From the NCBI GenBank assembly GCA_964016885.1, contig OZ024741.1:389050001-389114000 (forward strand): 64,000 nucleotides of DNA, given 5' to 3'. Shown here in pieces: positions 33,424 through 61,499 of this stretch. The stretch is from Eledone cirrhosa. Taxonomy: Eukaryota. The translations under genes and the position numbers were made by a program. Every line of letters starts with the position of its first letter. Position 1 is the stretch's first letter. The notes beneath the pieces were generated by a model. It saw only the letters and a list, made by a program, of their open reading frames with translations. It made no database searches and was not told the origin of the DNA.

Positions 33424-34414
33424 TCTTTGACTACATTTACTTTTAATGTTGCAATGTTCTTCTTTGACTACATTTACTTTTAATGTTGCAATGTTTATAC
33501 TAATATGTGGGTCTTTTCTAGTATAGCAAGTTGCCAGTCAACGTGATCTTGTCTCATTCCCTTCATAAATAGTAAGGAAAAAAACTCCTTAGAGCTTGCT
33601 CAAGTTTTCAATTTTGTTATTTTCCTCCCCTGAGATTTGAAGTGTCAAATGTTAGGGTTATGGGAGAGGAAACAATATGACTGGTAAGCAGTTAGTAAAT
33701 ATTTAATAGCAGAATTCTGTATATGGAAGAAATTAGACAGTTCATGATGACATGAAAGTTGTTGATAGTTTTAGCCCCAGGTCAACACTGATGAAGTAGT
33801 TCTGTGTTCAAAAATGTTCTAGCTGTGACCATCTATCTTTTTGTATATTAAAACTACATTATCCTTGTGTCTTTCTTGTTTTTAAGATGGTAAGGTGTAA
33901 ATTGATAGATTTAACTATTTCCAGTAGCTGCTTCTTAAGCCTGTTGTTATTTACTCTTCAGATCAGCTCTGATTAGTAAAATCATAAACATTCCATCTTT
34001 TCCCAAGGTCCTTGTTTAAAATAGTAGGCTGTGATCTGAATGAGATTTGACTATTCTTCCTAGCATGTCAAGCAACTGTATTGTAGCTCTTTCATTAGGT
34101 TTTTTGTGTATGTTATGAAAGTGTTTATTAATGCTGTGATTGTTGTCTTTTATAAAGTAATAATTGCAGATATGAAGCTAGCAGTCCATTCTGTTGTACA
34201 TATATTGTTGATAGGGAGGTAACTGTCCATCATGGTGCACATGCTGCAGTTCTTTAGAACATTGGATTCTCTATTATGTCCCATAACTCCTGATGGAGTC
34301 ATAGGGGTGCTGTAATGGCATATGCCATTTTTTGGACATTTTAAGCCTGACTCATGTGAATACAGCAGATTTTACCCAGGGAAGGATAAAGTGAGAAAAA
34401 GATGTTGAGGAAGA

Positions 34415-41739: not shown

Positions 41740-41852
41740 AGGGGCCTACTCGATTATATTCATCAATCACTTTTTATTGAACTGTTAAGCTCTAGAACTT
41801 AAACTCCCTCTCTCACATTTTTTCTCAAAAGATAAACTTTCTGTTCCTTCCT

Positions 41853-44800
41853 CTTCTCACTCTATCTTCTATTTCATCTTTTATTTCTCACTCTATCTTC
41901 TATTTCATCTTTTATTTCTCATTCTATCTTCTATTTCGTCTTTTATTTCTCACTCTATCTTCTATTTCATCTTTTATTTCTCATTCTATCTTCTATTTCA
42001 TCTTTTATTTCTCATTCTATCTTCTATTTCATCTTTTATTTCTCATTCTATCTTCTATTTCATCTTATATTTCTCACTCTATCTTCTATTTCATCTTTTA
42101 TTTCTCACTCTATCTTCTATTTTATCTTTTATTTCTTATTCTATCATTCTATTTCATCTTTTATTTCTCATTCTATCTTCTATTTCATCTTTTATTTCTC
42201 ACTCTATCTTTATTTCATCTTTTATTTCTCATTCTATCTTCTATTTCATCTTTTATTTCTCATTCTATCTTTCTATTTCATCTTTTATTTCTCACTCTAT
42301 CTTCTATTTCATCTTTTATTTCTCATTCTATCTTCTATTTCATCTTTTATTTCTCATTCTATCTTCTATTTCATCTTTTATTTCTCATTCTATCTTCTAT
42401 TTCATCTTTTATTTCTCATTCTCTCTTCTATTTCATCTTTTATTTCTCACTCTATCTTCTATTTCATCTTTTATTTCTCACTCTATCTTCTATTTCATCT
42501 TTTATTTCTCACTCTATCTTCTATTTCATCTTTTATTTCTCATTCTATCTTCTATTTCATCTTTTATTTCTCATTCTATCTTCTATTTCATCTTTTATTT
42601 CTCACTCTATCTTCTATTTCATCTTTTATTTCTCATTCTAGCTTCTATTTCATCTTTTATTTCTCATTCTATCTTCTATTTCATCTTCTATTTCTCACTC
42701 TATCTTCTATTTCATCTTTTATTTCTCATTCTATCTTCTATTTCATCTTTTATTTCTCACTCTATCTTCTATTTCATCTTTTATTTCTCACTCTATCTTC
42801 TATTTCATCTTTTATTTCTCATTCTATCTTCTATTTCATCTTTTATTTCTCATTCTATCTTCTATTTCATCTTTTATTTCTCATTCTATCTTCTATTTCA
42901 TCTTTTATTTCTCATTCTATCTTTCTATTTCATTTTTTATTTCTCATTCTATCTTTCTATTTCATCTTTTATTTCTCATTCTCTCTTCTATTTCATCTTT
43001 TATTTCTCATTCTATCTTCTATTTCATCTTTTATTTCTCATTCTATCTTCTATTTCATCTTTTATTTCTCATTCTATCTTCTATTTCATCTTTTATTTCT
43101 CATTCTATCTTTCTATTTCATTTTTTATTTCTCATTCTATCTTTCTATTTCATCTTTTATTTCTCATTCTCTCTTCTATTTCATCTTTTATTTCTCACTC
43201 TATCTTCTATTTCATCTTTTATTTCTCATTCTATCTTCCATTTCATCTTTTATTTCTCACTCTATCTTCTATTTCATCTTTTATTTCGCATTCTATCTTC
43301 TATTTCATCTTTTATTTCTCATTCTATCTTTCTATTTCATCTTTTATTTCTCAGTCTATCTTCTATTTCATCTTTTATTTCTCATTCTATCTTCTATTTC
43401 ATCTTTTATTTCTCATTCTATCTCCTATTTCATCTTTTATTTCTCATTCTATCTTCTATTTCATCTTTTATTTCTCACTCTATCTTCTATTTCATCTTTT
43501 ATTTCTCACTCTATCTTCTATTTCATCTTTTATTTCTCATTCTATCTTCTATTTCATCTTTTATTTCTCATTCTATCTTCTATTTCATCTTTTATTTCTC
43601 ATTCTATCTTTCTATTTCATCTTTTATTTCTCACTCTATCTTCTATTTCATCTTTTATTTCTCATTCTATCTTCTATTTCATCTTTTATTTCTCACTCTA
43701 TCTTCTATTTCATCTTTTATTTCTCATTCTATCTTCTATTTCATGTTTTATTTCTCATTCTATCTTCTATTTCATCTTTTATTTCTCACTCTATTTCATC
43801 TTTTATTTCTCACTCTATCTTCTATTTCATCTTTTATTTCTCACTCTATCTTCTATTTCATCTTTTATTTCTCATTCTATCTTCTATTTCATCTTTTATT
43901 TCTCATTCTATCTTCTATTTCATCTTTTATTTCTCACTCTATCTTCTATTTCATCTTTTATTTCTCATTCTATCTTCTATTTCATCTTTTATTTCTCATT
44001 CTATCTTCTATTTCATCTTCTATTTCTCACTCTATCTTCTATTTCATCTTTTATTTCTCATTCTATCTTCTATTTCATCTTTTATTTCTCACTCTATCTT
44101 CTATTTCATCTTTTATTTCTCATTCTATCTTCTATTTCATCTTTTATTTCTCATTCTATCTTCTATTTCATCTTTTATTTCTCACTCTATCTTCTATTTC
44201 ATCTTTTATTTCTCATTCTATCTTCTATTTCATCTTTTATTTCTCATTCTATCTTCTATTTCATCTTTTATTTCTCATTCTATCTTCTATTTCATCTTTT
44301 ATTTCTCATTCTATCTTCTATTTCATCTTTTATTTCTCATTCTATCTTTCTATTTCATCTTTTATTTCTCATTCTATCTTTCTATTTCATCTTTTATTTC
44401 TCATTCTCTCTTCTATTTCATCTTTTATTTCTCACTCTATCTTTATTTCATCTTTTATTTCTCATTCTATCTTCTATTTCATCTTTTATTTCTCACTCTA
44501 TCTTCTATTTTATCTTTTATTTCTCATTCTATCTTTCTATTTCATCTTCTATTTCATCTTTTATTTCTCATTCTATCTTCAATTTCATCTTTTATTTCTC
44601 ATTCTCTCTTCTATTTCATCTTTTATTTCTCACTCTATCTTCTATTTCATCTTTTATTTCTCATTCTATCTTCTATTTCATCTTTTATTTCTCACTCTAT
44701 CTTCTATTTCATCTTTTATTTCTCATTCTATCTTCTATTTCATCTTTTATTTCTCACTCTATCTTCTATTTCATCTTTTATTTCTCACTCTATCTTCTAT

Positions 44801-45876
44801 TTCATCTTTTATTTCTCATTCTATCTTCTATTTCATCTTTTATTTCTCATTCTATCTTCTATTTCATCTTTTATTTCTCATTCTATCTTCTATTTCATCT
44901 TTTATTTCTCATTCTATCTTCTATTTCATCTTTTATTTCTCATTCTATCTTTCTATTTCATCTTTTATTTCTCATTCTATCTTTCTATTTCATCTTTTAT
45001 TTCTCATTCTCTCTTCTATTTCATCTTTTATTTCTCATTCTATCTTCCATTTCATCTTTTATTTCTCACTCTATCTTTATTTCATCTTTTATTTCTCATT
45101 CTATCTTCTATTTCATCTTTTATTTCTCACTCTATCTTCTATTTTATCTTTTATTTCTCATTCTATCTTTCTATTTCATCTTCTATTTCATCTTTTATTT
45201 CTCATTCTATCTTCAATTTCATCTTTTATTTCTCATTCTATCTTCTATTTCATCTTTTATTTCTCACTCTATCTTCTATTTCATCTTTTATTTCTCATTC
45301 CATCTTCTATTTCATCTTTTATTTCTCATTCCATCTTCTATTTCATCTTTTATTTCTCATTATATCTTCTATTTCATCTTTTATTTCTCACTCTATCTTC
45401 TATTTCATCTTTTATTTCTCATTCTATCTTCAATTTCATCTTTTATTTCTCATTCTATCTTCTATTTCATCTTTTACTTCTCATTCTATCTTCTATTTCA
45501 TCTTTTATTTCTCATTCTATCTTCTATTTCATCTTTTATTTCTCATTATATCTTTCTATTTCATCTTTTATTTCTCATTCTCTCTTCTATTTCATCTTTT
45601 ATTTCTCACTCTATCTTCTATTTCATCTTTTATTTCTCATTCTATCTTCCATTTCATCTTTTATTTCTCACTCTATCTTCTATTTCATCTTTTATTTCTC
45701 ATTCTATCTTCTATTTCATCTTTTATTTCTCATTCTATCTTCTATTTCATCTTCTATTTCTCACTCTATCTTCTATTTCATCTTTTATTTCTCATTCTAT
45801 CTTCTATTTCATCTTTTATTTCTCATTCTATCTTCTATTTCATCTCTTATTTCTCATTCTATCTTTCTATTTCATC
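41853..45876. repeat. 31-bp pyrimidine-rich satellite array, left arm
   Basis: Unit tttctca(t/c)tctatcttctatttcatctttta; the 31-aa periodicity of the translation (93 nt = 3 units) confirms the period. Confidence 0.98.
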
Positions 45877-48800
45877 AGAATTAAGGATAAGGACTTTTTA
45901 AGTTGTCCAAAAATGCGCATGGTTGGCTATTCAGACCACAAATTAGTGACCTGCATGGTCAACCTTGACAGAACTCATAGACAGGGCCCCGGTTACTGGA
46001 AGCTCAACTTGTCCTTGCCGGCAAGTAGAGCCTACAGGAATCGGATTAGTACGTTAGTTAAGGAACGGTTGACTGGAGCGATCGTCAACAGCAGGTGGTG
46101 GGTATCTCTAAAGAGAGAGATTAGAGTAGTCTCGATAGAATTTAGTAAGGTTCTAGCTGCGGATAGGAATAGGAAGGAAAGGGAGCTAATAGATAGAGTA
46201 GAAGAGGCAATTAGAAGCGGCGACGTGGCCAGAGTGCTAGCGTCGAGAACGGCTTTGAGCCAGTTTTTCGACGCGAAGCACGAAGGCTGCGTTGTCCGAA
46301 GTAAAATACGTGCTCTAGGGAACGAGGGGACCAAAGCTGTTAGCTGGGCCCGCGTGACAGAGGCCAACAGTGGAACTAAATCCACCATCCGGTCTTTGCG
46401 AGACCTGGATGGACGGGCGATTCTTGGGCCTAAGCAGATGTGTGAGGCCTTTCAAAGGCACTTTGCCCGACTGTTCGGGAGGGGCGGGGAGCCGGTTGGG
46501 AACGTGGACTTCGGTCCATACCTCGACGGCCTGCCGCGCCTCTCGGACAGGGAGGCGAAGTCCTGCGAGGAGCCGATTTCGGCCGCTGAGATAGAGGACG
46601 TGCTGAGCCAATGCGGCAAACGCAAATCCCCGGGTCTCGATGGTCTTCCTTACGAATTATATCTAGCTATGCCGGACTTGTTCCCCGATCTCCTCGAGGC
46701 GGTCTACTGCAACTGGCAACAGAATGGGAGAATTCCCTGTACTGTGACCAAGGGCGTAGTCACGCTAGTGAGGAAGGACGAGAACAAGGGGGACGAAATA
46801 AGTAACTTCAGGCCCATAACTCTGCTAAATACAGAGTTACAGATTTTGGCCAAGGTGCTAGCAAAGAGGTTGGCGCTTGTCGTGGGCAACCTGGTGGGAG
46901 ATGCGCAGACATGCGCTATCCCGTCCAGGTCCATCCATGACAACCTCCACCTCATGCGATACATCATAGAGAGGGTTGGGAACGAACCCGGCTTTGGTGG
47001 GGCTCTGATCAACTTGGATCAATCTAAGGCGTTCGATAGGGTCGACCATGGTTACCTGGATGCGGTGCTAGCGGCGGCAGGCTTCGGACCCGTTTTCAGG
47101 GGCTGGATCACTGCTATGCACAGCAGCCGCATCTGCTCTAGGGTCAAGGTGAACGGCTACCTCTCGGAGCCGTTCAAAATCGCGCGGTCCATCCGACAGG
47201 GGTGCCCTCTCTCCTCCCTTCTGTATGTGTTGACTCTCGAGCCACTACTGCGGAAGTTGGAGTTGTTGCAGGGCATCCCTTTGGAACCGGGATTGCGGAA
47301 AGCGGTGTCGGCCTACGCCGATGACGTGACAGTAATGGTGTCGACGGCCTCCGAAATCGAGGCGGTCGGCACCTTACTGGAGGAGTACGAAAAGTTCACA
47401 GGGGCTAAGCTGAACCGGGACAAGTCGATCGGTTTGCAACTCGGCACGTGGAGGGGCAGACCGATGCCCTCCGATGGCGTCGTCGGACGCTGGACGGAGG
47501 GCCCGGTGAAGTTGCTCGGGGTCTGGTTCGGACCGGACCTCCAGGTGGAGAAAAACTGGGCGGAGGTTACGAACAGGGTGTTTGCACTGACCCAGAAGTG
47601 GGCCAGTTGCAAACTATCCCTGAAAGGTCGGGCGGAGGTGGCGAACACCTACATAGCGTCCGTCATCTACTACCGCCTGACCGTAGTGCCCTGCCCAAGG
47701 GAAACCCTCACCAAGATGGAGCGCGCGCTCTTCCAATTCCTTTGGAAGAGGCGGGCTCCTATGGTGAGGAGATCCATCTGCTGTCAACACCCTTCGAAAG
47801 GAGGGCTGGGGATGCCGTGGCTAATGATGCGTAAACACGCATTAAGGCTACGGCACCTCTACGTATTCCTCACCGGACAACCGGTGTGGGCCTCGTTTGT
47901 GAGGCGAACCTTTCCCAGACTCGTCTCACTCACCGAGCTGCAATCCTGGGTCAAGCAAAGACCGAGAAAACTGGGCGCCTGGCACACTGAGTGTGCCCAG
48001 GCGCTCACCGCCCTCTGGCAGGCGGATCCGGTTATCAGTGGAGACTCCACCGCAACATTCTATAGAGGGCTGGTACGCAGCAGGTGCGACGACGCCCTCG
48101 GAGAAGCCCTAGACATGGAGGAGGACGAACTGGCCAGCCTGTTCGGTAGGACATTCAGCCCGGGACCTATGGACAACTTCCAGAAGTCCCTGGCCTGGCA
48201 GTGCTACCGAGGGGCTTTACCCGTTCGAGAAAGGCTCTACAGACACGGGCGCCCGGGTAGGGACCCCGCCAAAAAGATCTGTCCCAGATGCGTGTGCGAC
48301 GAGGAAACCGTTGCACACGCATTGGTACACTGCTCGGGCGTAGCCGATCTGTGGGGCTATGTCGAACAACTGCTGTCAAGGGTGGAACCGATCCGGTTGA
48401 CCACCGAGTCTATTGTAATGATCAAGCCGCCTCCCCCCTTCAAAGATGAAGCAGAGGCGGTGTTTCTGTGCGTAATAGCCATGGCGAAAGAGGTTGTATG
48501 GTGGACGCGTCTGAAAGGACTGAGGTCAGGCACCTTTCTCTCTGGCCAACAACTGGTCCGTTTCTTCCGATATCATTTCGGAAGAAGGATCAGGATGGAG
48601 AGAGAGGTGCTGCACCCCAGCCGTTTCTATGAAAGATGGGTGAAAGTGGCGAGAATGGCCCGTGTGAATGGGCCTTCACTCTACATCAGACTATAGGTGA
48701 GGAAGATGAAAGACCAAGGGAGCACCCCTTCTCTGTGCTCCTGAGGAGAAGGGTTGCACACTTTTTTCGGGGGTGTGTGCGACCCCCCAAGGCGCCTCCT

Positions 48801-48960
48801 CTCTATTGAGGATTTTGTTAAAAATTTTATTTTTTGTTATATCTTATTTTATTTTTATATTTTGTTATTGCCTCCTCCTTATTGAGGACGCCTTTTTGTG
48901 TAAACTCCCCCCTTTGTACTTGTCCCACTTTTGATGCCCTAGTGGCAAATAAAAGAAATA
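45877..48960 (+). mobile_element. 5'-truncated Tx1/L1-group non-LTR retrotransposon inserted in the satellite, 17-bp TSD
   Basis: TSD tatctttctatttcatc at 45860-45876 and 48961-48977; ORF2, 3'UTR and AATAAA at 48948-48953. Confidence 0.95.
45913..48696 (+). CDS. Tx1-like ORF2: end of APE endonuclease, reverse transcriptase, C-terminal CCHC zinc knuckle
   Basis: SDH (APE C-terminus), GPGYWKLN, KSPGLDGLPYE, NFRPITLLN, LDQSKAFDRVDH, RQGCPLS, YADD, CPRC...HALVHC; frame is open from the junction at 45877. Confidence 0.95.
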   Translation: MRMVGYSDHKLVTCMVNLDRTHRQGPGYWKLNLSLPASRAYRNRISTLVKERLTGAIVNSRWWVSLKREIRVVSIEFSKVLAADRNRKERELIDRVEEAIRSGDVARVLASRTALSQFFDAKHEGCVVRSKIRALGNEGTKAVSWARVTEANSGTKSTIRSLRDLDGRAILGPKQMCEAFQRHFARLFGRGGEPVGNVDFGPYLDGLPRLSDREAKSCEEPISAAEIEDVLSQCGKRKSPGLDGLPYELYLAMPDLFPDLLEAVYCNWQQNGRIPCTVTKGVVTLVRKDENKGDEISNFRPITLLNTELQILAKVLAKRLALVVGNLVGDAQTCAIPSRSIHDNLHLMRYIIERVGNEPGFGGALINLDQSKAFDRVDHGYLDAVLAAAGFGPVFRGWITAMHSSRICSRVKVNGYLSEPFKIARSIRQGCPLSSLLYVLTLEPLLRKLELLQGIPLEPGLRKAVSAYADDVTVMVSTASEIEAVGTLLEEYEKFTGAKLNRDKSIGLQLGTWRGRPMPSDGVVGRWTEGPVKLLGVWFGPDLQVEKNWAEVTNRVFALTQKWASCKLSLKGRAEVANTYIASVIYYRLTVVPCPRETLTKMERALFQFLWKRRAPMVRRSICCQHPSKGGLGMPWLMMRKHALRLRHLYVFLTGQPVWASFVRRTFPRLVSLTELQSWVKQRPRKLGAWHTECAQALTALWQADPVISGDSTATFYRGLVRSRCDDALGEALDMEEDELASLFGRTFSPGPMDNFQKSLAWQCYRGALPVRERLYRHGRPGRDPAKKICPRCVCDEETVAHALVHCSGVADLWGYVEQLLSRVEPIRLTTESIVMIKPPPPFKDEAEAVFLCVIAMAKEVVWWTRLKGLRSGTFLSGQQLVRFFRYHFGRRIRMEREVLHPSRFYERWVKVARMARVNGPSLYIRL

Positions 48961-51900
48961 TATCTTTCTATTTCATCTTTTATTTCTCAGTCTATCTTCT
49001 ATTTCATCTTTTATTTCTCATTCTATCTTCTATTTCATCTTTTATTTCTCATTCTATCTTCTATTTCATCTTTTATTTCTCATTCTATCTTCTATTTCAT
49101 CTTTTATTTCTCATTCTATCTTCTATTTCATCTTTTATTTCTTATTCTATCTTTCTATTTCATCTTTTATTTCTCGCTCTATCTTCTATTTCATCTTTTA
49201 TTTCTCATTCTATCTTTCTATTTCATCTTTTATTTCTCATTCTATCTTTCTATTTCATCTTTTATTTCTCATTCTATCTTCTATTTCATCTTTTATTTCT
49301 CATTCTATCTTCTATTTCATCTTTTATTTCTCATTCTATCTTCAATTTCATGTTTTATTTCTCATTCTATCTTCAATTTCATCTTTTATTTCTCATTCTA
49401 TCTTCTATTTCATCTTTTATTTCTCATTCTATCTTCTATTTCATCTTTTATTTCTCACTCTATCTTCTATTTCATCTTTTATTTCTCACTCTATCTTCTA
49501 TTTCATCTTTTATTTCTCATTCTATCTTCTATTTCATCTTTTATTTCTCATTCTATCTTCTATTTCATCTTTTATTTCTCATTCTATCTTTCTATTTCAT
49601 CTTTTATTTCTCGCTCTATCTTCTATTTCATCTTTTATTTCTTATTCTATCTTTCTATTTCATCTTTTATTTCTCATTCTATCTTTCTATTTCATCTTTT
49701 ATTTCTCATTCTATCTTCTATTTCATCTTTTATTTCTCATTCTATCTTCAATTTCATCTTTTATTTCTCATTCTATCTTCTATTTCATCTTTTATTTCTC
49801 ATTCTATCTTCTATTTCATCTTTTATTTCTCATTCTATCTTCAATTTCATCTTTTATTTCTCATTCTATCTTCTATTTCATCTTTTATTTCTCATTCTAT
49901 CTTCAATTTCATCTTTTATTTCTCATTCTATCTTCAATTTCATCTTTTATTTCTCATTCTATCTTCTATTTCATCTTTTATTTCTCACTCTATCTTCTAT
50001 TTCATCTTTTATTTCTCATTCTATATTCTATTTCATCTTTTATTTCTCATTGTATCTTCTATTTCATCTTTTATTTCTCATTCTATCTTGTATTTCATCT
50101 TTAATTTCTATCTTATATTTAATCTTTCATTTCTCATTCTATCTTCTATTTCATCTTTCATTTCTCATTCTATCTTCTATTTCATCTTCTATTTCTCACT
50201 CTATCTTCTATTTCATCTTTTATTTCTCATTCTATCTTCTATTTCATCTTTTATTTCTCACTCTATCTTCTATTTCATCTTTTATTTCTCATTCTATCTT
50301 CTATTTCATCTTTTATTTCTCATTCTATCTTCTATTTCATCTTTTATTTCTCATTCTATCTTCTATTTCATCTTTTATTTCTCATTCTATCTTCTATTTC
50401 ATCTTTTATTTCTCATTCTATCTTTCTATTTCATCTTTTATTTCTCATTCTATCTTTCTATTTCATCTTTTATTTCTCATTCTCTCTTCTATTTCATCTT
50501 TTATTTCTCATTCTATCTTCCATTTCATCTTTTATTTCTCACTCTATCTTTATTTCATCTTTTATTTCTCATTCTATCTTCTATTTCATCTTTTATTTCT
50601 CACTCTATCTTCTATTTTATCTTTTATTTCTCATTCTATCTTTCTATTTCATCTTCTATTTCATCTTTTATTTCTCATTCTATCTTCAATTTCATCTTTT
50701 ATTTCTCATTCTATCTTCTATTTCATCTTTTATTTCTCACTCTATCTTCTATTTCATCTTTTATTTCTCATTCCATCTTCTATTTCATCTTTTATTTCTA
50801 ATTCCATCTTCTATTTCATCTTTTATTTCTCATTATATCTTCTATTTCATCTTTTATTTCTCACTCTATCTTCTATTTCATCATTATTTCTCACTCTATC
50901 TTCTATTTCATCTTTTATTTCTCATTATATCTTTCTATTTCATCTTTTATTTCTCATTCTATCTTCTATTTCATCTTTTATTTCTCATTCTATCTTCTAT
51001 TTCATCTTTTATTTCTCATTCTATCTTCTATTTCATCTTTTATTTCTCATTCTATCTTCTATTTCATCTTTTATTTCTCATTTTATCTTTCTATTTCATC
51101 TTTTATTTCTCATTCTCTCTTCTATTTCATCTTTTATTTCTCACTCTATCTTCTATTTCATCTTTTATTTCTCATTCTATCTTCTATTTCATCTTTTATT
51201 TCTCATTCTATCTTTCTATTTCATCTTTTATTTCTCAGTCTATCTTCTATTTCATCTTTTATTTCTCATTCTATCTTCTATTTCATCTTTTATTTCTCAT
51301 TCTCTCTTCTATTTCATCTTTTATTTCTCACTCTATCTTCTATTTCATCTTTTATTTCTCATTCTATCTTCCATTTCATCTTTTATTTCTCACTCTATCT
51401 TCTATTTCATCTTTTATTTCTCAGTCTATCTTCTATTTCATCTTTTATTTCTCATTCTATCTTCTATTTCATTTTTTATTTCTCATTCTATCTTTCTATT
51501 TCATCTTTTATTTCTCATTCTATCTTTCTATTTCATTTTTTATTTCTCATTCTATCTTTCTATTTCATCTTTTATTTCTCATTCTCTCTTCTATTTCATC
51601 TTTTATTTCTCACTCTATCTTCTATTTCATCTTTTATTTCTCATTCTATCTTCCATTTCATCTTTTATTTCTCACTCTATCTTCTATTTCATCTTTTATT
51701 TCTCAGTCTATCTTCTATTTCATCTTTTATTTCTCAGTCTATCTTCTATTTCATCTTTTATTTCTCATTCTATCTTCTATTTCATCTTTTATTTCTCATT
51801 CTCTCTTCTATTTCATCTTTTATTTCTCACTCTATCTTCTATTTCATCTTTTATTTCTCATTCTATCTTCCATTTCATCTTTTATTTCTCACTCTATCTT

Positions 51901-54900
51901 CTATTTCATCTTTTATTTCTCAGTCTATCTTCTATTTCATCTTTTATTTCTCATTCTATCTTCTATTTCATTTTTTATTTCTCATTCTATCTTTCTATTT
52001 CATCTTTTATTTCTCATTCTATCTTTCTATTTCATTTTTTATTTCTCATTCTATCTTTCTATTTCATCTTTTATTTCTCATTCTCTCTTCTATTTCATCT
52101 TTTATTTCTCACTCTATCTTCTATTTCATCTTTTATTTCTCATTCTATCTTTCTATTTCATCTTTTATTTCTCATTCTCTCTTCTATTTCATCTTTTATT
52201 TCTCATTCTATCTTCCATTTCATCTTTTATTTCTCACTCTATCTTCTATTTCATCTTTTATTTCTCATTCTATCTTCTATTTCATCTTTTATTTCTCATT
52301 CTATCTTTCTATTTCATCTTTTATTTCTCAGTCTATCTTCTATTTCATCTTTTATTTCTCATTCTATCTTCTATTTCATCTTTTATTTCTCATTCTATCT
52401 TCTATTTCATCTTTTATTTCTCATTCTATCTTCTATTTAATCTTTTATTTCTCATTCTATCTTCTATTTCATCTTTTATTTCTCATTCTATCTTTCTATT
52501 TCATTTTTTATTTCTCATTCTATCTTTCTATTTCATCTTTTATTTCTCATTCTCTCTTCTATTTCATCTTTTATTTCTCACTCTATCTTCTATTTCATCT
52601 TTTATTTCTCATTCTATCTTCCATTTCATCTTTTATTTCTCACTCTATCTTCTATTTCATCTTTTATTTCTCATTCTATCTTCTATTTCATCTTTTATTT
52701 CTCATTCTATCTTTCTATTTCATCTTTTATTTCTCAGTCTATTTTCTATTTCATCTTTTATTTCTCATTCTATCTTCTATTTCATCTTTTATTTCTCATT
52801 CTCTCTTCTATTTCATCTTTTATTTCTCACTCTATCTTCTATTTCATCTTTTATTTCTCATTCTATCTTCTATTTCATCTTTTATTTCTCACTCTATCTT
52901 CTATTTCATCTTTTATTTCTCATTCTATCTTCTATTTCATCTTTTATTTCTCACTCTATCTTCTATTTCATCTTTTATTTCTCACTCTATCTTCTATTTC
53001 ATCTTTTATTTCTCATTCTATCTTCTATTTCATCTTTTATTTCTCATTCTATCTTCTATTTCATCTTTTATTTCTCATTCTATCTTCTATTTCATCTTTT
53101 ATTTCTCATTCTATCTTCTATTTCATCTTTTATTTCTCATTCTATCTTTCTATTTCATCTTTTATTTCTCATTCTATCTTTCTATTTCATCTTTTATTTC
53201 TCATTCTCTCTTCTATTTCATCTTTTATTTCTCATTCTATCTTCCATTTCATCTTTTATTTCTCACTCTATCTTTATTTCATCTTTTATTTCTCATTCTA
53301 TCTTCTATTTCATCTTTTATTTCTCACTCTATCTTCTATTTTATCTTTTATTTCTCATTCTATCTTTCTATTTCATCTTCTATTTCATCTTTTATTTCTC
53401 ATTCTATCTTCAATTTCATCTTTTATTTCTCATTCTATCTTCTATTTCATCTTTTATTTCTCACTCTATCTTCTATTTCATCTTTTATTTCTCATTCCAT
53501 CTTCTATTTCATCTTTTATTTCTCATTCCATCTTCTATTTCATCTTTTATTTCTCATTATATCTTCTATTTCATCTTTTATTTCTCACTCTATCTTCTAT
53601 TTCATCTTTTATTTCTCATTCTATCTTCAATTTCATCTTTTATTTCTCATTCTATCTTCTATTTCATCTTTTACTTCTCATTCTATCTTCTATTTCATCT
53701 TTTATTTCTCATTCTATCTTCTATTTCATCTTTTATTTCTCATTATATCTTTCTATTTCATCTTTTATTTCTCATTCTCTCTTCTATTTCATCTTTTATT
53801 TCTCACTCTATCTTCTATTTCATCTTTTATTTCTCATTCTATCTTCCATTTCATCTTTTATTTCTCACTCTATCTTCTATTTCATCTTTTATTTCTCATT
53901 CTATCTTCTATTTCATCTTTTATTTCTCATTCTATCTTCTATTTCATCTTCTATTTCTCACTCTATCTTCTATTTCATCTTTTATTTCTCATTCTATCTT
54001 CTATTTCATCTTTTATTTCTCATTCTATCTTCTATTTCATCTCTTATTTCTCATTCTATCTTTCTATTTCATCTTTTATTTCTCAGTCTATCTTCTATTT
54101 CATCTTTTATTTCTCATTCTATCTTCTATTTCATCTTTTATTTCTCATTCTATCTTCTATTTCATCTTTTATTTCTCATTCTATCTTCTATTTCATCTTT
54201 TATTTCTCATTCTATCTTCTATTTCATCTTTTATTTCTTATTCTATCTTTCTATTTCATCTTTTATTTCTCGCTCTATCTTCTATTTCATCTTTTATTTC
54301 TCATTCTATCTTTCTATTTCATCTTTTATTTCTCATTCTATCTTTCTATTTCATCTTTTATTTCTCATTCTATCTTCTATTTCATCTTTTATTTCTCATT
54401 CTATCTTCTATTTCATCTTTTATTTCTCATTCTATCTTCAATTTCATGTTTTATTTCTCATTCTATCTTCAATTTCATCTTTTATTTCTCATTCTATCTT
54501 CTATTTCATCTTTTATTTCTCATTCTATCTTCTATTTCATCTTTTATTTCTCACTCTATCTTCTATTTCATCTTTTATTTCTCACTCTATCTTCTATTTC
54601 ATCTTTTATTTCTCATTCTATCTTCTATTTCATCTTTTATTTCTCATTCTATCTTCTATTTCATCTTTTATTTCTCATTCTATCTTTCTATTTCATCTTT
54701 TATTTCTCGCTCTATCTTCTATTTCATCTTTTATTTCTTATTCTATCTTTCTATTTCATCTTTTATTTCTCATTCTATCTTTCTATTTCATCTTTTATTT
54801 CTCATTCTATCTTCTATTTCATCTTTTATTTCTCATTCTATCTTCAATTTCATCTTTTATTTCTCATTCTATCTTCTATTTCATCTTTTATTTCTCATTC

Positions 54901-57900
54901 TATCTTCTATTTCATCTTTTATTTCTCATTCTATCTTCAATTTCATCTTTTATTTCTCATTCTATCTTCTATTTCATCTTTTATTTCTCATTCTATCTTC
55001 AATTTCATCTTTTATTTCTCATTCTATCTTCAATTTCATCTTTTATTTCTCATTCTATCTTCTATTTCATCTTTTATTTCTCACTCTATCTTCTATTTCA
55101 TCTTTTATTTCTCATTCTATATTCTATTTCATCTTTTATTTCTCATTGTATCTTCTATTTCATCTTTTATTTCTCATTCTATCTTGTATTTCATCTTTAA
55201 TTTCTATCTTATATTTAATCTTTCATTTCTCATTCTATCTTCTATTTCATCTTTCATTTCTCATTCTATCTTCTATTTCATCTTCTATTTCTCACTCTAT
55301 CTTCTATTTCATCTTTTATTTCTCATTCTATCTTCTATTTCATCTTTTATTTCTCACTCTATCTTCTATTTCATCTTTTATTTCTCATTCTATCTTCTAT
55401 TTCATCTTTTATTTCTCATTCTATCTTCTATTTCATCTTTTATTTCTCATTCTATCTTCTATTTCATCTTTTATTTCTCATTCTATCTTCTATTTCATCT
55501 TTTATTTCTCATTCTATCTTTCTATTTCATCTTTTATTTCTCATTCTATCTTTCTATTTCATCTTTTATTTCTCATTCTCTCTTCTATTTCATCTTTTAT
55601 TTCTCATTCTATCTTCCATTTCATCTTTTATTTCTCACTCTATCTTTATTTCATCTTTTATTTCTCATTCTATCTTCTATTTCATCTTTTATTTCTCACT
55701 CTATCTTCTATTTTATCTTTTATTTCTCATTCTATCTTTCTATTTCATCTTCTATTTCATCTTTTATTTCTCATTCTATCTTCAATTTCATCTTTTATTT
55801 CTCATTCTATCTTCTATTTCATCTTTTATTTCTCACTCTATCTTCTATTTCATCTTTTATTTCTCATTCCATCTTCTATTTCATCTTTTATTTCTAATTC
55901 CATCTTCTATTTCATCTTTTATTTCTCATTATATCTTCTATTTCATCTTTTATTTCTCACTCTATCTTCTATTTCATCATTATTTCTCACTCTATCTTCT
56001 ATTTCATCTTTTATTTCTCATTATATCTTTCTATTTCATCTTTTATTTCTCATTCTATCTTCTATTTCATCTTTTATTTCTCATTCTATCTTCTATTTCA
56101 TCTTTTATTTCTCATTCTATCTTCTATTTCATCTTTTATTTCTCATTCTATCTTCTATTTCATCTTTTATTTCTCATTTTATCTTTCTATTTCATCTTTT
56201 ATTTCTCATTCTCTCTTCTATTTCATCTTTTATTTCTCACTCTATCTTCTATTTCATCTTTTATTTCTCATTCTATCTTCTATTTCATCTTTTATTTCTC
56301 ATTCTATCTTTCTATTTCATCTTTTATTTCTCAGTCTATCTTCTATTTCATCTTTTATTTCTCATTCTATCTTCTATTTCATCTTTTATTTCTCATTCTC
56401 TCTTCTATTTCATCTTTTATTTCTCACTCTATCTTCTATTTCATCTTTTATTTCTCATTCTATCTTCCATTTCATCTTTTATTTCTCACTCTATCTTCTA
56501 TTTCATCTTTTATTTCTCAGTCTATCTTCTATTTCATCTTTTATTTCTCATTCTATCTTCTATTTCATTTTTTATTTCTCATTCTATCTTTCTATTTCAT
56601 CTTTTATTTCTCATTCTATCTTTCTATTTCATTTTTTATTTCTCATTCTATCTTTCTATTTCATCTTTTATTTCTCATTCTCTCTTCTATTTCATCTTTT
56701 ATTTCTCACTCTATCTTCTATTTCATCTTTTATTTCTCATTCTATCTTCCATTTCATCTTTTATTTCTCACTCTATCTTCTATTTCATCTTTTATTTCTC
56801 AGTCTATCTTCTATTTCATCTTTTATTTCTCAGTCTATCTTCTATTTCATCTTTTATTTCTCATTCTATCTTCTATTTCATCTTTTATTTCTCATTCTCT
56901 CTTCTATTTCATCTTTTATTTCTCACTCTATCTTCTATTTCATCTTTTATTTCTCATTCTATCTTCCATTTCATCTTTTATTTCTCACTCTATCTTCTAT
57001 TTCATCTTTTATTTCTCAGTCTATCTTCTATTTCATCTTTTATTTCTCATTCTATCTTCTATTTCATTTTTTATTTCTCATTCTATCTTTCTATTTCATC
57101 TTTTATTTCTCATTCTATCTTTCTATTTCATTTTTTATTTCTCATTCTATCTTTCTATTTCATCTTTTATTTCTCATTCTCTCTTCTATTTCATCTTTTA
57201 TTTCTCACTCTATCTTCTATTTCATCTTTTATTTCTCATTCTATCTTCCATTTCATCTTTTATTTCTCACTCTATCTTCTATTTCATCTTTTATTTCTCA
57301 GTCTATCTTCTATTTCATCTTTTATTTCTCATTCTATCTTCTATTTCATCTTTTATTTCTCATTCTATCTTCTATTTCATCTTTTATTTCTCACTCTATC
57401 TTCTATTTCATCTTTTATTTCTCACTCTATCTTCTATTTCATCTTTTATTTCTCATTCTATCTTCTATTTCATCTTTTATTTCTCATTCTATCTTCTATT
57501 TCATCTTTTATTTCTCATTCTATCTTCTATTTCATCTTTTATTTCTCATTCTATCTTTCTATTTCATCTTTTATTTCTCGCTCTATCTTCTATTTCATCT
57601 TTTATTTCTCATTCTATCTTTCTATTTCATCTTTTATTTCTCATTCTATCTTTCTATTTCATCTTTTATTTCTCATTCTATCTTCTATTTCATCTTTTAT
57701 TTCTCATTCTATCTTCAATTTCATCTTTTATTTCTCATTCTATCTTCTATTTCATCTTTTATTTCTCATTCTATCTTCTATTTCATCTTTTATTTCTCAT
57801 TCTATCTTCAATTTCATCTTTTATTTCTCATTCTATCTTCTATTTCATCTTTTATTTCTCATTCTATCTTCAATTTCATCTTTTATTTCTCATTCTATCT

Positions 57901-60900
57901 TCAATTTCATCTTTTATTTCTCATTCTATCTTCTATTTCATCTTTTATTTCTCACTCTATCTTCTATTTCATCTTTTATTTCTCATTCTATATTCTATTT
58001 CATCTTTTATTTCTCATTGTATCTTCTATTTCATCTTTTATTTCTCATTCTATCTTGTATTTCATCTTTAATTTCTATCTTATATTTAATCTTTCATTTC
58101 TCATTCTATCTTCTATTTCATCTTTCATTTCTCATTCTATCTTCTATTTCATCTTCTATTTCTCACTCTATCTTCTATTTCATCTTTTATTTCTCATTCT
58201 ATCTTCTATTTCATCTTTTATTTCTCACTCTATCTTCTATTTCATCTTTTATTTCTCATTCTATCTTCTATTTCATCTTTTATTTCTCATTCTATCTTCT
58301 ATTTCATCTTTTATTTCTCATTCTATCTTCTATTTCATCTTTTATTTCTCATTCTATCTTCTATTTCATCTTTTATTTCTCATTCTATCTTTCTATTTCA
58401 TCTTTTATTTCTCATTCTATCTTTCTATTTCATCTTTTATTTCTCATTCTCTCTTCTATTTCATCTTTTATTTCTCATTCTATCTTCCATTTCATCTTTT
58501 ATTTCTCACTCTATCTTTATTTCATCTTTTATTTCTCATTCTATCTTCTATTTCATCTTTTATTTCTCACTCTATCTTCTATTTTATCTTTTATTTCTCA
58601 TTCTATCTTTCTATTTCATCTTCTATTTCATCTTTTATTTCTCATTCTATCTTCAATTTCATCTTTTATTTCTCATTCTATCTTCTATTTCATCTTTTAT
58701 TTCTCACTCTATCTTCTATTTCATCTTTTATTTCTCATTCCATCTTCTATTTCATCTTTTATTTCTAATTCCATCTTCTATTTCATCTTTTATTTCTCAT
58801 TATATCTTCTATTTCATCTTTTATTTCTCACTCTATCTTCTATTTCATCATTATTTCTCACTCTATCTTCTATTTCATCTTTTATTTCTCATTATATCTT
58901 TCTATTTCATCTTTTATTTCTCATTCTATCTTCTATTTCATCTTTTATTTCTCATTCTATCTTCTATTTCATCTTTTATTTCTCATTCTATCTTCTATTT
59001 CATCTTTTATTTCTCATTCTATCTTCTATTTCATCTTTTATTTCTCATTCTATCTTTCTATTTCATCTTTTATTTCTCATTCTCTCTTCTATTTCATCTT
59101 TTATTTCTCACTCTATCTTCTATTTCATCTTTTATTTCTCATTCTATCTTCCATTTCATCTTTTATTTCTCACTCTATCTTCTATTTCATCTTTTATTTC
59201 TCATTCTATCTTCTATTTCATCTTTTATTTCTCATTCTATCTTTCTATTTCATCTTTTATTTCTCAGTCTATCTTCTATTTCATCTTTTATTTCTCATTC
59301 TATCTTCTATTTCATCTTTTATTTCTCATTCTCTCTTCTATTTCATCTTTTATTTCTCACTCTATCTTCTATTTCATCTTTTATTTCTCATTCTATCTTC
59401 CATTTCATCTTTTATTTCTCACTCTATCTTCTATTTCATCTTTTATTTCTCAGTCTATCTTCTATTTCATCTTTTATTTCTCATTCTATCTTCTATTTCA
59501 TTTTTTATTTCTCATTCTATCTTTCTATTTCATCTTTTATTTCTCATTCTATCTTTCTATTTCATTTTTTATTTCTCATTCTATCTTTCTATTTCATCTT
59601 TTATTTCTCATTCTCTCTTCTATTTCATCTTTTATTTCTCACTCTATCTTCTATTTCATCTTTTATTTCTCATTCTATCTTCCATTTCATCTTTTATTTC
59701 TCACTCTATCTTCTATTTCATCTTTTATTTCTCAGTCTATCTTCTATTTCATCTTTTATTTCTCATTCTATCTTCTATTTCATCTTTTATTTCTCATTCT
59801 ATCTTCTATTTCATCTTTTATTTCTCATTCTATCTTCTATTTCATCTTTTATTTCTCAATCTATCTTCTATTTCATCTTTTATTTCTTATTCTATCTTTC
59901 TATTTCATCTTTTATTTCTCGCTCTATCTTCTATTTCATCTTTTATTTCTCATTCTATCTTTCTATTTCATCTTTTATTTCTCATTCTATCTTTCTATTT
60001 CATCTTTTATTTCTCATTCTATCTTCTATTTCATCTTTTATTTCTCATTCTATCTTCAATTTCATCTTTTATTTCTCATTCTATCTTCTATTTCATCTTT
60101 TATTTCTCATTCTATCTTCTATTTCATCTTTTATTTCTCATTCTATCTTCAATTTCATCTTTTATTTCTCATTCTATCTTCAATTTCATCTTTTATTTCT
60201 CATTCTATCTTCTATTTCATCTTTTATTTCTCATTCTATCTTCTATTTCATCTTTTATTTCTCACTCTATCTTCTATTTCATCTTTTATTTCTCACTCTA
60301 TCTTCTATTTCATCTTTTATTTCTCATTCTATCTTCTATTTCATCTTTTATTTCTCATTCTATCTTCTATTTCATCTTTTATTTCTCATTCTATCTTCTA
60401 TTTCATCTTTTATTTCTCATTCTATCTTTCTATTTCATCTTTTATTTCTCGCTCTATCTTCTATTTCATCTTTTATTTCTCATTCTATCTTTCTATTTCA
60501 TCTTTTATTTCTCATTCTATCTTTCTATTTCATCTTTTATTTCTCATTCTATCTTCTATTTCATCTTTTATTTCTCATTCTATCTTCTATTTCATCTTTT
60601 ATTTCTCATTCTATCTTCTATTTCATCTTTTATTTCTCATTCTATCTTCAATTTCATCTTTTATTTCTCATTCTATCTTCTATTTCATCTTTTATTTCTC
60701 ATTCTATCTTCAATTCCATCTTTTATTTCTCATTCTATCTTCAATTTCATCTTTTATTTCTCATTCTATCTTCTATTTCATCTTTTATTTCTCACTCTAT
60801 CTTCTATTTCATCTTTTATTTCTCATTCTATATTCTATTTCATCTTTTATTTCTCATTGTATCTTCTATTTCATCTTTTATTTCTCATTCTATCTTCTAT

Positions 60901-61078
60901 TTCATCTTTCATTTCTCATTCTATCTTCTATTTCATCTTTTATTTCTCATTCTAGCTTCTATTTCATCTTTTATTTCTCATTCTATCTTCTATTTCATCT
61001 TTCATTTCTCATTCTATCTTCTATTTCATCTTTTATTTCTGATTGTATCTTCTATTTCATCTTTTATTTCTCATTCTT
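48961..61078. repeat. 31-bp satellite array, right arm, with higher-order duplications
   Basis: Same unit; a diagnostic variant block recurs at 50090, 55186 and 58057. Confidence 0.98.
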
Positions 61079-61499
61079 TTCTTACTATATCAAGCATTAA
61101 ACTAATATATTTCTTCATTGTACTGTATCATTTGCTTTATTAATTCTGTTTACTTTTTGCATATGCACACATACACATGCGCACGCACACACATGATCGG
61201 CTTCTGTAGTTTGTGTTCATCAAATTTCACTCACAAAAGGCATTATTCAATCTGAGGCTATAGTGGAAGACACTTGCCCAAGTTACCATGTAGTGGGAGT
61301 AAACCTGAAGTCATGTGATTGTAAAAGGAATTCCTTAACCACACAGATGTCTTTTTAATTAGAACAGCCATATTAAATATCAGTTTCTTTCTTTTTCCCT
61401 GTTTTCTTTTACTTTGTATTTAAATCTTGTTTATGTTCATATTATCTTTAATCCACTTCTTTAAAAGGTTTATAAAGATTTCCTGTGCACTTTTAATTT

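What the first reader, a model, noticed from the sequence alone, without database searches (positions are those of the whole stretch)
45860..48977. Young Tx1-like retrotransposon inside a 31-bp satellite: candidate satellite-targeting element
Seen: a 3084-bp element with an uninterrupted 927-aa frame sits in the middle of a ~19-kb array, flanked by a 17-bp TSD (tatctttctatttcatc) taken from a 32-bp variant unit. It is the only foreign insertion in the array, whereas the flanking DNA is full of RTE, SINE and MITE copies. No Tx1 copy occurs elsewhere in the window. Established: many Tx1-clade elements are sequence-specific for multicopy targets, for example Kibi and Koshi for TC/TTC microsatellites, Keno for U2 snRNA, Dewa for tRNA arrays and Mutsu for 5S. 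Inference: this family may target this pyrimidine-rich satellite or TATC/TTTC-like motifs. A single insertion cannot prove specificity.
Basis: partly seen in the sequence, partly recalled or inferred. Interest (0 to 1): 0.75.

Follow-up and report, generated by a model that had tools for sequence, protein, structure and literature searches.

The report
TATC-repeat-seeking LINE in a look-alike site
The insert is a dead, half-length copy of a young, abundant jumping gene that sits almost only in TATC and TA simple repeats, and it likely entered this one-off 31-bp tandem array because a variant unit mimics its usual target, not because it targets the array.

Summary
A 3,084-bp insert (45877-48960) with an open 939-codon frame splits a 31-bp tandem array and is flanked by the 17-bp repeat TATCTTTCTATTTCATC.

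The satellite-targeting reading fails. The array is unique: all 162 exact 31-mer units in the 3.0-Gb genome lie in this window. It is an expansion inside one copy of a dispersed repeat. The LINE family has at least 1,974 copies, and only this one lies in the array.

The family's real target is a microsatellite. Genome-wide, 1,284 of 1,974 3' ends (65%) are followed by NN+TATCTATC. In 100 position-ordered copies, 98 junctions begin TAT (82 TATC, 15 TATA) and none begins GATA. Of 77 resolved 5' flanks, 59 lie in TATC or TA repeats. TSDs that can be resolved are 16-21 bp.

The window copy landed on TATCTTTCTAT, which is 10 of 11 matches to (TATC)n. It is the only class of site in the array that close (79 of about 32,200 strand positions).

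The element is a 5'-truncated copy of a ~5.7-kb L1/Tx1-group LINE (ORF1 with a CCHC knuckle; ORF2 with APE, RT and zf-RVT). Tx1 membership was not tested by phylogeny.

Verdict: a new member of a known kind, the microsatellite-specific LINEs. Interest is moderate to low.

The parts
41854..45876 (+). Left part of the 31-bp tandem array (unit TTCTCATTCTATCTTCTATTTCATCTTTTAT)
   Evidence: TRF: period 31, 129.8 copies, 94% matches. Units counted: 92 normal (TATCTTCTAT) and 15 variant (TATCTTTCTAT).
45860..45876 (+). Left copy of the 17-bp target-site duplication TATCTTTCTATTTCATC, in a 32-bp variant unit
   Evidence: Sequence. It is identical to 48961-48977. Its first 11 nt match TATCTATCTAT at 10 of 11 positions.
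45877..48960 (+). 5'-truncated LINE copy (3,084 bp), starting at about position 2629 of the ~5.7-kb full-length element
   Evidence: It is 99.5% identical over 3,084 bp to the full-length copy in L037. tblastn with ORF2 gives 98.9% identity.
45877..48696 (+). Open remnant of ORF2 (939 codons plus stop): last ~27 residues of the APE domain, then RT and the C-terminal zinc-binding region
   Evidence: Translation, (P0001). Pfam.
46792..47523 (+). Reverse transcriptase domain (RVT_1, P0001 residues 306-549)
   Evidence: E = 3.7e-26, 92.6 bits (cut-off 29.6).
48184..48354 (+). zf-RVT-like zinc-binding motif (CPRCVCDEETVAHALVHC region, P0001 residues 770-826)
   Evidence: E = 3e-05, 25.0 bits, just under Pfam's 27.5-bit cut-off.
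48697..48960 (+). 3' UTR ending ...TTTGATGCCCTAGTGGCAAATAAAAGAAATA, with no poly(A) or microsatellite tail
   Evidence: Sequence. The terminal dinucleotide TA marks a heritable subfamily.
48961..48977 (+). Right copy of the 17-bp target-site duplication
   Evidence: Sequence.
48961..61077 (+). Right part of the 31-bp tandem array
   Evidence: TRF. Units counted: 234 normal and 65 variant.
41790..41853 (+). Left arm of the dispersed repeat copy in which the array expanded (...ttttctcaaaagataaactttctgttccttcctcttctcactc)
   Evidence: It matches the left context of dispersed single copies of the 19-mer core (L120-L125).
61078..61135 (+). Right arm of the same dispersed repeat copy (...cttactatatcaagcattaaactaatatatttcttcattgtact)
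   Evidence: It matches the right context in L122-L125.

Best explanation
The insert at 45877-48960 is a 5'-truncated copy of a ~5.7-kb L1/Tx1-group LINE family whose at least 1,974 young copies lie, in one orientation and one phase, in (TATC)n and (TA)n microsatellites. It likely entered the 31-bp array only because the 32-bp variant unit offers the near-cognate site TATCTTTCTAT.

Shown:
- The family's 3' ends (...AAAGAAA plus a heritable dinucleotide TA, CA or CT) abut TATC or TATA exactly.
- The 5' flanks are also TATC or TA repeats.
- TSDs are 16-21 bp and begin at that TAT.
- The satellite is a single-locus array that holds one copy.

Inferred:
- Insertion is by target-primed reverse transcription.
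- The APE-type endonuclease would nick the GATA strand just after 5'-GATA (or TATA), opposite the first T of a TATC unit.
- The freed 3'-OH would prime cDNA synthesis at the element's 3' end.
- The second strand would be cut 16-21 nt downstream, giving the TSD.
- Reverse transcription stopped early, at about position 2629, which left a dead copy.
- Whether specificity lies in the endonuclease alone, or also in pairing of a read-through RNA 3' end with the target, is not known.
For: Copy number and age:
- The 3'-end 24-mer has 1,962 exact hits and the 23-mer 1,974. Reversed controls give 0.
- 27 of 30 sampled loci are at least 98% identical to the window copy.
- Median pairwise distance is 1.17% over the last 1 kb of 70 copies. 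Within the window's 'TA' subfamily it is 0.59%.

Target at the 3' junction:
- 1,284 of 1,974 3' ends (65%) are followed by NN+TATCTATC.
- In the first 100 hits on contig C1, taken in position order, 98 junctions begin TAT: 82 TATC, 15 TATA and 1 TATT. 69 begin TATCTATC.
- 0 of 100 begin GATA, and 0 of 100 have GATAGATA in the first 40 nt. 34 have 6 or more perfect TATC units.
- Phase positions followed by 6 or more TATC units number 174,303 in 2 x 3.0 Gb. By my arithmetic that is an enrichment of roughly 10^4-fold.

It is a target, not a tail:
- Of 77 copies with a resolved 5' boundary, 50 have TATC repeats and 9 have (TA)n directly upstream.
- The window copy and several others (L014, L021, L074-L076) have no TATC tail at all.

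TSDs and the 3' end:
- TSDs with unique ends are 16-21 bp (L014, L021, L026, L059, L068, L089, L092, L116). The window's 17 bp is typical.
- The dinucleotide before TATC is inherited: within-class distance is smaller than between-class distance, permutation p = 0.0005. The element's end and the junction are therefore exact.

The satellite is not a multicopy target:
- All 162 exact 31-mers in the genome are in this window.
- The array's flanks are the two arms of a dispersed repeat.

Near-cognate site:
- In the reconstructed empty array, TATCTTTCTAT (79 sites) is the only class within 1 mismatch of TATCTATCTAT. The next class has 2 sites at 2 mismatches, the rest 3 or more, and the opposite strand 5 or more.
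- The insertion sits exactly on one of these sites in the family's usual phase. By chance that is about 79 in 32,226, or 0.0025.
- Genome-wide, 7 of 1,974 copies use TATMTTTCTA sites. Three of them lie in another tandem repeat (~49-bp unit starting TATATTTCTAAT) and carry different terminal dinucleotides, so they include independent hits at the same phase.

Sister families:
- Families ending CCYTGTGGCTAATAAAGAAA show the same preference: 6,890 of 10,527 (65%).

Architecture:
- The full-length copy in L037 has ORF1 (592 aa, with a CX2CX4HX4C knuckle), a TAA stop, and an in-frame ORF2 (1,153 codons) with Exo_endo_phos at 31-235, RVT_1 at 520-763 and zf-RVT at 984-1040.
- ORF2 aligns over residues 12-865 with human L1 ORF2p, E = 1.7e-48.
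Against: - A 17-position weight matrix built from the 100 junctions does not single out the actual site. It scores 9.2 against 29.4 for perfect (TATC)n, and 585 array positions score higher. The near-cognate argument rests on the 8-12 nt next to the nick, a length chosen after seeing the data, although it holds for lengths 8, 11 and 12.
- The window holds long (TA)n tracts with much higher matrix scores and no insertion.
- 2 of 100 3' junctions are not TAT (L099 is A-rich; L108 is shifted by one T). 10 of 77 5' flanks are not repeats, though some of these are artefacts of boundary calling in diverged subfamilies.
- The n=100 sample covers only the first 156 Mb of one contig, and only copies with an intact 3' word. 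The genome-wide counts agree (65%).
- No biochemical or RNA evidence exists. The nick site, the role of the endonuclease and current activity are all inferred.
- In a tandem array, the TSD cannot be formally told from a 15-bp target deletion.
Confidence: 0.88

Rival explanations
1. One reading: the family is specific for this pyrimidine-rich 31-bp satellite, as Tx1-clade elements are for other multicopy targets.
For: The copy lies in the array with a clean TSD and is the only insert there. Tx1 families with satellite targets are mentioned in the legend of Fig. 3 of PMC4494074.
Against: All 162 exact satellite units in the genome lie in this window. The 19-mer core occurs elsewhere only as dispersed single copies. 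Only 1 of 1,974 family copies lies in the array. 97 of 100 sampled copies lie at TATC or TATA sites.
Confidence: 0.02
2. The element is not target-specific. It carries or generates a (TATC)n 3' tail, as other LINEs carry microsatellite tails, and TATC upstream of copies arises from nesting in older tails.
For: Every copy has TATC or TA on its 3' side. Several 5' flanks are the TATC stretch downstream of an older related element (L012, L016, L030, L061, L084, L098, L101). In L022 the 3' side reads TATCTATCTCTC while the 5' side reads TTTCTTTCTCTC, as if TATC units were copied from RNA.
Against: The window copy has no TATC tail: its end abuts the satellite TSD directly. L014, L021, L066, L074-L076 and L106 also lack a tail. 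59 of 77 5' flanks are TATC or TA repeats. TSDs start with the TAT itself and run on into unique sequence.
Confidence: 0.04
3. Insertion is near-random, or merely AT-biased as in L1, and copies survive preferentially in microsatellites and tandem arrays because those are harmless places (passive accumulation).
For: Passive accumulation near CA repeats has been proposed for the Drosophila Waldo elements (a passage of PMC3812793). The window copy lies in a gene-poor, repeat-rich region.
Against: Selection would not produce a single orientation (0 of 100 junctions at GATA), a single phase (the junction falls exactly before TATC in 82 of 100), or an excess in copies that differ by only about 1%.
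Confidence: 0.04

Closest known systems
Kibi and Koshi, Tx1-clade LINEs of teleosts specific for (TC)n and (TTC)n, and the crocodilian Tx1 families that prefer (TTCC)n/(TTTC)n
   Same: They are APE-encoding L1-group LINEs inserted specifically into a pyrimidine-containing microsatellite. This is as described in passages and section 15 of PMC4494074 and a passage of PMC3812793. Here both flanks are microsatellite, insertion is orientation-specific, and there is no poly(A) tail.
   Different: The target motif is (TATC)n with (TA)n as a secondary target. I found no such target in the papers read or in five full-text searches. Kinship to Kibi and Koshi was not tested because no labelled sequences were available. 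The best named relatives are only 26-30% identical.
Tx1 of Xenopus laevis and Keno (Tx1 clade, L1 group)
   Same: ORF2 has APE, RT and a C-terminal zinc-binding region, and ORF1 has a CCHC knuckle. Insertion is target-specific. P0050 scores 298-391 bits against animal elements. These include a Danio 'pol-like protein' (BAC82621.1) and a protein its source names 'Transposon TX1 putative 149 kDa'. It scores 168 bits against human L1 ORF2p.
   Different: Those elements target a DNA transposon (Tx1D) or U2 snRNA genes, not a microsatellite. Clade membership was not shown by phylogeny.
Human LINE-1 ORF2p (PDB 8sxt, 8uw3, 9k6g)
   Same: The two are collinear across the APE and RT domains (residues 12-865 against 8-877, E = 1.7e-48). 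The mechanism, presumed from L1 biology as I recall it, is target-primed reverse transcription with frequent 5' truncation and TSDs of similar length.
   Different: As I recall, L1 nicks a loose TTTT/A consensus and ends in poly(A). This family ends in AAAGAAA+NN and uses a 4-nt periodic target with an exact phase.
Waldo and Mino (R1 clade) and Dong (R4 clade), microsatellite-specific LINEs
   Same: They work alike: sequence-specific insertion into (ACAY)n, (AC)n or (TAA)n (a passage of PMC3812793).
   Different: They belong to different clades. As I recall, Dong has a restriction-like endonuclease, whereas this element has an APE domain.

Membership tests
L1 group of non-LTR retrotransposons | ORF2 with an N-terminal APE-type endonuclease followed by a reverse transcriptase, collinear with L1 ORF2p | tested here: met
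   Pfam gives Exo_endo_phos at 31-235 (E = 4.4e-8) and RVT_1 at 520-763 (E = 5.2e-26) in P0050. phmmer against human L1 ORF2p chains gives E = 1.7e-48 over residues 12-865.
L1 group of non-LTR retrotransposons | C-terminal cysteine-rich (zf-RVT / CCHC) region in ORF2 | tested here: inconclusive
   zf-RVT scores E = 4e-05 and 24.6 bits, under the 27.5-bit cut-off. The motif CPRCVCDEETVAHALVHC is visible in the translation.
Tx1 clade | RT and APE phylogeny placing the element with Tx1, Keno, Kibi, Koshi, Mutsu and Dewa rather than with L1 proper | not testable with these tools
   No labelled Tx1 reference sequence could be obtained. Three protein searches returned no curated Tx1 entry. Indirect evidence only: 298-391 bits to animal elements, including one named 'Transposon TX1 putative' by its source. 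Against that, 168 bits to human L1 ORF2p, 180 to a fungal element and 95 to a plant L1-type element.
Tx1 clade | Target-sequence-specific insertion (a frequent trait of the clade, not universal) | tested here: met
   1,284 of 1,974 3' ends are followed by NN+TATCTATC. 98 of 100 junctions begin TAT. 59 of 77 5' flanks lie in TATC or TA repeats.
Tx1 clade | ORF1 with RNA-binding domain(s) plus a CCHC zinc knuckle | tested here: inconclusive
   A CX2CX4HX4C motif (CYLCGTRGHLRAVC) is present in P0051, but P0051 has no Pfam hit at E <= 0.01. Fish and frog relatives carry ZCCHC3-type RNA-binding domains plus zf-CCHC.
Microsatellite-specific LINEs (Kibi/Koshi type) | Both junctions lie in the same microsatellite, in a fixed orientation | tested here: met
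   3' side: 82 of 100 TATC and 0 of 100 GATA. 5' side: 50 of 77 TATC repeats and 9 of 77 (TA)n. By the 20% criterion quoted from PMC4494074, the family counts as target-specific.
   The satellite is a single locus: all 162 exact units in the genome are in this window. Only 1 of 1,974 copies lies in it.

The most novel reading that the evidence does not exclude
This genome carries a previously undescribed LINE lineage specific for (TATC)n, with at least 12,500 copies across several families. Its endonuclease reads a 4-nt periodic motif with exact phase and strand. Each insertion duplicates 16-21 bp of the array, so the lineage itself remodels and spreads the tetranucleotide repeats it lives in. 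Hits at near-cognate sites in longer tandem arrays (this 31-bp array; a 49-bp array hit at least twice) show the route by which a microsatellite-specific LINE could shift to a satellite target.
Probability: 0.35. Interest if true: 0.55.

Novelty: new member of a known kind. Interest (0 to 1): 0.32.

Why it matters
It removes a tempting but wrong claim. A single insertion in a tandem array looked like satellite targeting, but the array is unique in the genome and the family's real target is a common tetranucleotide repeat.

What remains is a clean, large natural data set: about 2,000 copies that are roughly 99% alike, plus about 10,500 copies of sister families. It covers a phase-exact, strand-specific, microsatellite-seeking LINE with a target motif that I did not find described.

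Such elements are models for how APE-type endonucleases acquire sequence specificity, and for how mobile elements and microsatellites shape each other. The near-cognate hits give a natural off-target spectrum.

Tried and rejected
- Whole-genome DNA search with the 264-bp 3' UTR found nothing, not even the window itself. This is a limit of that search mode, so I used exact patterns instead.
I sent a 33-place pattern instead.
- A 17-position weight matrix of the target did not rank the actual site highly. I report this as evidence against.
- Protein searches for a labelled Tx1 reference, the ESM Atlas and cluster look-ups gave no curated clade label. No RT tree was built, because it could not have decided between Tx1 and L1.
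- The accession BAC82621 is mentioned in no paper of the library. My recollection that it comes from the 2004 screen for sequence-specific LINEs is unverified.
- Kojima and Fujiwara 2004 is not held, and the supplements of PMC4494074 could not be read. A (TATC)n-specific family could be listed there, or in Repbase, which I cannot reach.
- Earlier findings of this scan, searched by sequence, gave nothing.
- Sequencing runs: no RNA holder is listed. Contigs of four coded runs laid on 47900-48977 show related sequence. One run has loose ends reading ATCTATCTATC... before a 5' truncation point. The organism labels are coded and one run may be the source sample, so I draw no conclusion on host range or expression.
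- I considered and rejected a structure prediction of the endonuclease, because it would not reveal target specificity.
Full report
**1. What is in the window**

TRF finds a 31-bp tandem array at 41854-45876 and at 48961-61077, with 94% matches. Between the two parts lies a 3,084-bp insert at 45877-48960.

The 17-mer TATCTTTCTATTTCATC stands on both sides, at 45860-45876 and at 48961-48977. Both copies are in the 32-bp variant of the unit (TATCTTTCTAT instead of TATCTTCTAT). After the insert the array restarts the unit rather than continuing in phase, so the repeat is a real duplication. In principle it could instead be a 15-bp deletion between two neighbouring variant units.

The insert carries one open frame of 939 codons ending at 48696. 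It has RVT_1 (E = 3.7e-26) and a weak zf-RVT match. It begins within the last residues of an endonuclease domain (..GYSDH..), so the copy is 5'-truncated. It ends ...GGCAAATAAAAGAAATA without a poly(A) tail. tblastn with the family's two proteins finds no other copy in the window.

**2. The family**

The last 24 nt before the terminal A-rich stretch occur 1,962 times in the 3.0-Gb genome, and a 23-mer reaching the element's end occurs 1,974 times. The reversed controls give 0.

Of the first 30 loci, 27 are at least 98% identical to the window copy. Among 70 copies, the median pairwise distance over the last 1 kb is 1.17%.

Longer stretches around 20 copies show a full length of about 5.7 kb. 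The layout is as follows.
- A 5' end reading (G)GATGGACACACGCG.
- ORF1 of 592 codons, with a CX2CX4HX4C knuckle and an asparagine-rich tract.
- A TAA stop.
- Then, in the same frame, ORF2 of 1,153 codons, with Exo_endo_phos, RVT_1 and zf-RVT.

ORF2 is collinear with human L1 ORF2p over residues 12-865, E = 1.7e-48. The window copy starts at about position 2629 of the full-length element.

**3. Where the family sits**

Genome-wide, 1,284 of the 1,974 3' ends (65%) are followed by two variable bases and then TATCTATC.

I then took the first 100 hits on contig C1 in position order, unselected for flank. After AAAGAAA+NN:
- 98 begin TAT: 82 TATC, 15 TATA and 1 TATT.
- 69 begin TATCTATC.
- 34 have six or more perfect TATC units.
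- None begins GATA or holds GATAGATA in the first 40 nt.

The two exceptions are an A-rich flank (L099) and a junction shifted by one T (L108).

The two variable bases are TA in 39 copies, CA in 31 and CT in 25. They are inherited: copies of one class are closer to each other than to other classes (permutation p = 0.0005). They therefore belong to the element, and the junction with TATC is exact.

Phase positions followed by six or more TATC units number 174,303 on both strands of the genome. By my arithmetic, 34 of 100 is an excess of roughly four orders of magnitude.

**4. Target or tail?**

A LINE could make its own microsatellite tail. Three things speak against this.

- The 5' flanks. Of 77 copies whose 5' boundary lay within the fetched DNA (7 full-length, 70 truncated; 23 ran off the edge), 50 have TATC repeats and 9 have (TA)n directly upstream. 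Another 8 have a single TATC or TATA, and 10 have neither. Some of the 10 are boundary artefacts in diverged subfamilies.
- Copies without a tail. The window copy and several others (L014, L021, L066, L074-L076, L106) have no TATC run at all. The element's end abuts the duplicated target directly.
- The TSDs. Where the duplication runs out of the repeat into unique sequence, it starts at the TAT and is 16-21 bp long (L014, L021, L026, L059, L068, L089, L092, L116). The window's 17 bp fits.

One locus (L022) has TATCTATCTCTC on the 3' side and TTTCTTTCTCTC on the 5' side. This hints that TATC units can sometimes be copied from a read-through RNA. It is a single case.

**5. The satellite is not a multicopy target**

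The exact 31-mer unit occurs 162 times in the genome, and all 162 are in this window.

A 19-mer core occurs 1,154 times, 447 of them in the window. The 100 hits listed outside the window are isolated single copies on both strands. Six of them, when fetched, share a longer common context. The sequences just outside the array (41790-41853 and 61078-61135) are the left and right arms of that same dispersed repeat.

The array is therefore a local expansion of about 31 bp inside one copy of an interspersed repeat. It holds 1 of at least 1,974 copies of the LINE family.

**6. Why this spot?**

In the reconstructed empty array, I compared every position on both strands with (TATC)n over the bases next to the junction. 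For 11 nt:
- The variant-unit site TATCTTTCTAT (79 sites) is the only class within one mismatch.
- Two sites have two mismatches.
- The normal unit has three or more.
- The opposite strand has five or more.

The picture is the same for 8 and 12 nt. The insertion lies exactly on one of the 79 sites, in the family's usual phase. For a random position and strand, that is about 0.0025.

Outside the array, the window has only two sites within one mismatch.

Against this reading, a 17-position matrix from the 100 junctions gives the site only 9.2 bits (perfect TATC scores 29.4), and 585 array positions score higher. The window's (TA)n tracts also score far higher and are empty. So only the first 8-12 nt explain the choice, and I picked that length after seeing the data.

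Independent support comes from a genome-wide count. Seven of 1,974 copies are followed by TATMTTTCTA. They are the window copy, three in degenerate TATC-like DNA, and three in another tandem repeat of about 49 bp whose unit starts TATATTTCTAAT. Those three carry different terminal dinucleotides, so they include independent hits at one phase.

In the 100-copy sample, 5 lie in such longer-period arrays (L014, L021, L074-L076). The window's case belongs to a small class: arrays whose unit contains a look-alike of the target.

**7. Mechanism (inferred)**

By analogy with other APE-type LINEs, insertion would be by target-primed reverse transcription.
- The endonuclease would nick the GATA strand after 5'-GATA (or TATA).
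- The 3'-OH would prime on the RNA's 3' end (...AAAGAAAUA).
- The other strand would be cut 16-21 nt downstream.
- Early termination gives the 5' truncations: 70 of the 77 resolved copies are truncated.

The strict strand and phase argue for recognition at the nick. Whether RNA-target pairing contributes is open. Several sampled copies have an open 1,153-codon ORF2, and one also has an open ORF1. Together with about 1% divergence, this suggests recent activity, but no RNA evidence was obtained.

**8. Comparison with what is known**

Passages of PMC4494074, PMC3812793 and PMC4640811 describe Tx1-clade LINEs as often target-specific:
- Tx1 for the Tx1D transposon.
- Keno for U2 genes.
- Kibi for (TC)n.
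- Koshi for (TTC)n.
- Crocodilian families for (TTCC)n/(TTTC)n, Mariner and Harbinger transposons.
- Others for satellites, U5 and 5S.

The original 2004 screen is not held. This family works like Kibi and Koshi but uses (TATC)n. I found no such target in five full-text searches. Repbase and the supplements could not be checked.

Clade membership is not settled.
- The nearest proteins (69% and 42% identity) are unnamed.
- Named relatives from fish, frogs, lancelet and a Danio 'pol-like protein' are 26-30% identical.
- Bit scores to such animal elements are 298-391. One of them is named 'Transposon TX1 putative' by its source. The score to human L1 ORF2p is 168.
- This fits Tx1 but is not a phylogeny.

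**9. Wider lineage**

A related 3' end (CCYTGTGGCTAATAAAGAAA), seen next to TATC runs in many flanks, occurs 10,527 times. It is followed by NN+TATCTATC in 6,890 cases, or 65%. A full-length copy of the window's family that is 12% diverged (L036) also lies in TATC. The preference is therefore older than this family.

Copies often stand head to tail, separated by a few TATC units (L024-L026, L069, L092, L116, L117).

**10. Verdict**

The satellite-targeting interpretation is refuted. The fallback, a TATC-like motif, is right.

The element is an ordinary dead copy of a young LINE family specific for (TATC)n and (TA)n, at a near-cognate site. It is a new member of a known kind.

Noticed in passing
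window 41790-61135; loci L120-L125: The 31-bp 'satellite' is a single-locus expansion inside one copy of a dispersed repeat. The array's two flanks match the left and right arms of that repeat. A 19-mer core of the unit occurs about 707 times elsewhere in the genome; the 100 such hits listed are isolated single copies.
   Followed up: partly
genome-wide; examples in the flanks of L012, L013, L016, L030, L061, L098 and L101: Sister families with a related 3' end (CCYTGTGGCTAATAAAGAAA) have 10,527 copies, of which 6,890 (65%) are followed by NN+TATCTATC. Some are only about 80 bp long. I did not check whether they include non-autonomous (SINE-like) partners.
   Followed up: partly
L126-L128 (G000:C1:108.72-108.82 Mb): Three copies sit at the same phase (TATATTTCTAAT) of a ~49-bp tandem repeat, with different terminal dinucleotides (CC, CC, TA). 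This is a second tandem array hit more than once at a near-cognate site.
   Followed up: partly
L024-L026 (G000:C1:42.268 Mb); L069, L092, L116, L117: Copies form head-to-tail tandems separated by only a few TATC units. Some include a full-length 5' end directly downstream of another copy's 3' end.
   Followed up: no
L037 minus strand 4220-4222, and 6 other copies: ORF1 and ORF2 are in the same frame, separated by a single TAA. The first ATG of ORF2 lies 8 codons downstream. The arrangement is identical in all 7 copies where the boundary word was found, out of 14 examined. How ORF2 is translated is unknown.
   Followed up: no
L022 / L044 (G000:C1:37.47 Mb): The 3' side of the copy reads TATCTATCTCTC, while the matching 5' side reads TTTCTTTCTCTC. 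This looks as if two TATC units came from the RNA template rather than from the target. It is a single case.
   Followed up: no
window 31239-33467 (-) and 3465-3947 (-): There is another LINE-type ORF with RVT_1 followed by a PHD finger (742 codons), and a second PHD-finger ORF. I did not classify it.
   Followed up: no
L099 (G000:C1:138.806 Mb): One of the 100 copies is followed by an A-rich tract (AAAAAAAAACAAAAAAATAATAATAA...) instead of TATC or TA.
   Followed up: no
window 45877-48960 in public runs: Twenty runs under 17 coded organism labels hold 10-86% of the element's sampled 31-mers. None is on record as RNA. Contigs of a second label carry pieces with no differences. The labels are coded, so I cannot say whether this reflects close relatives, one species under several labels, or something else.
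   Followed up: partly
L037 ORF1 (P0051 residues ~60-105): ORF1 contains a long asparagine-rich low-complexity tract (NNNNNATDENNTNNNNNNKTNNGDNNNNDNNNTTNDNNNTNK).
   Followed up: no
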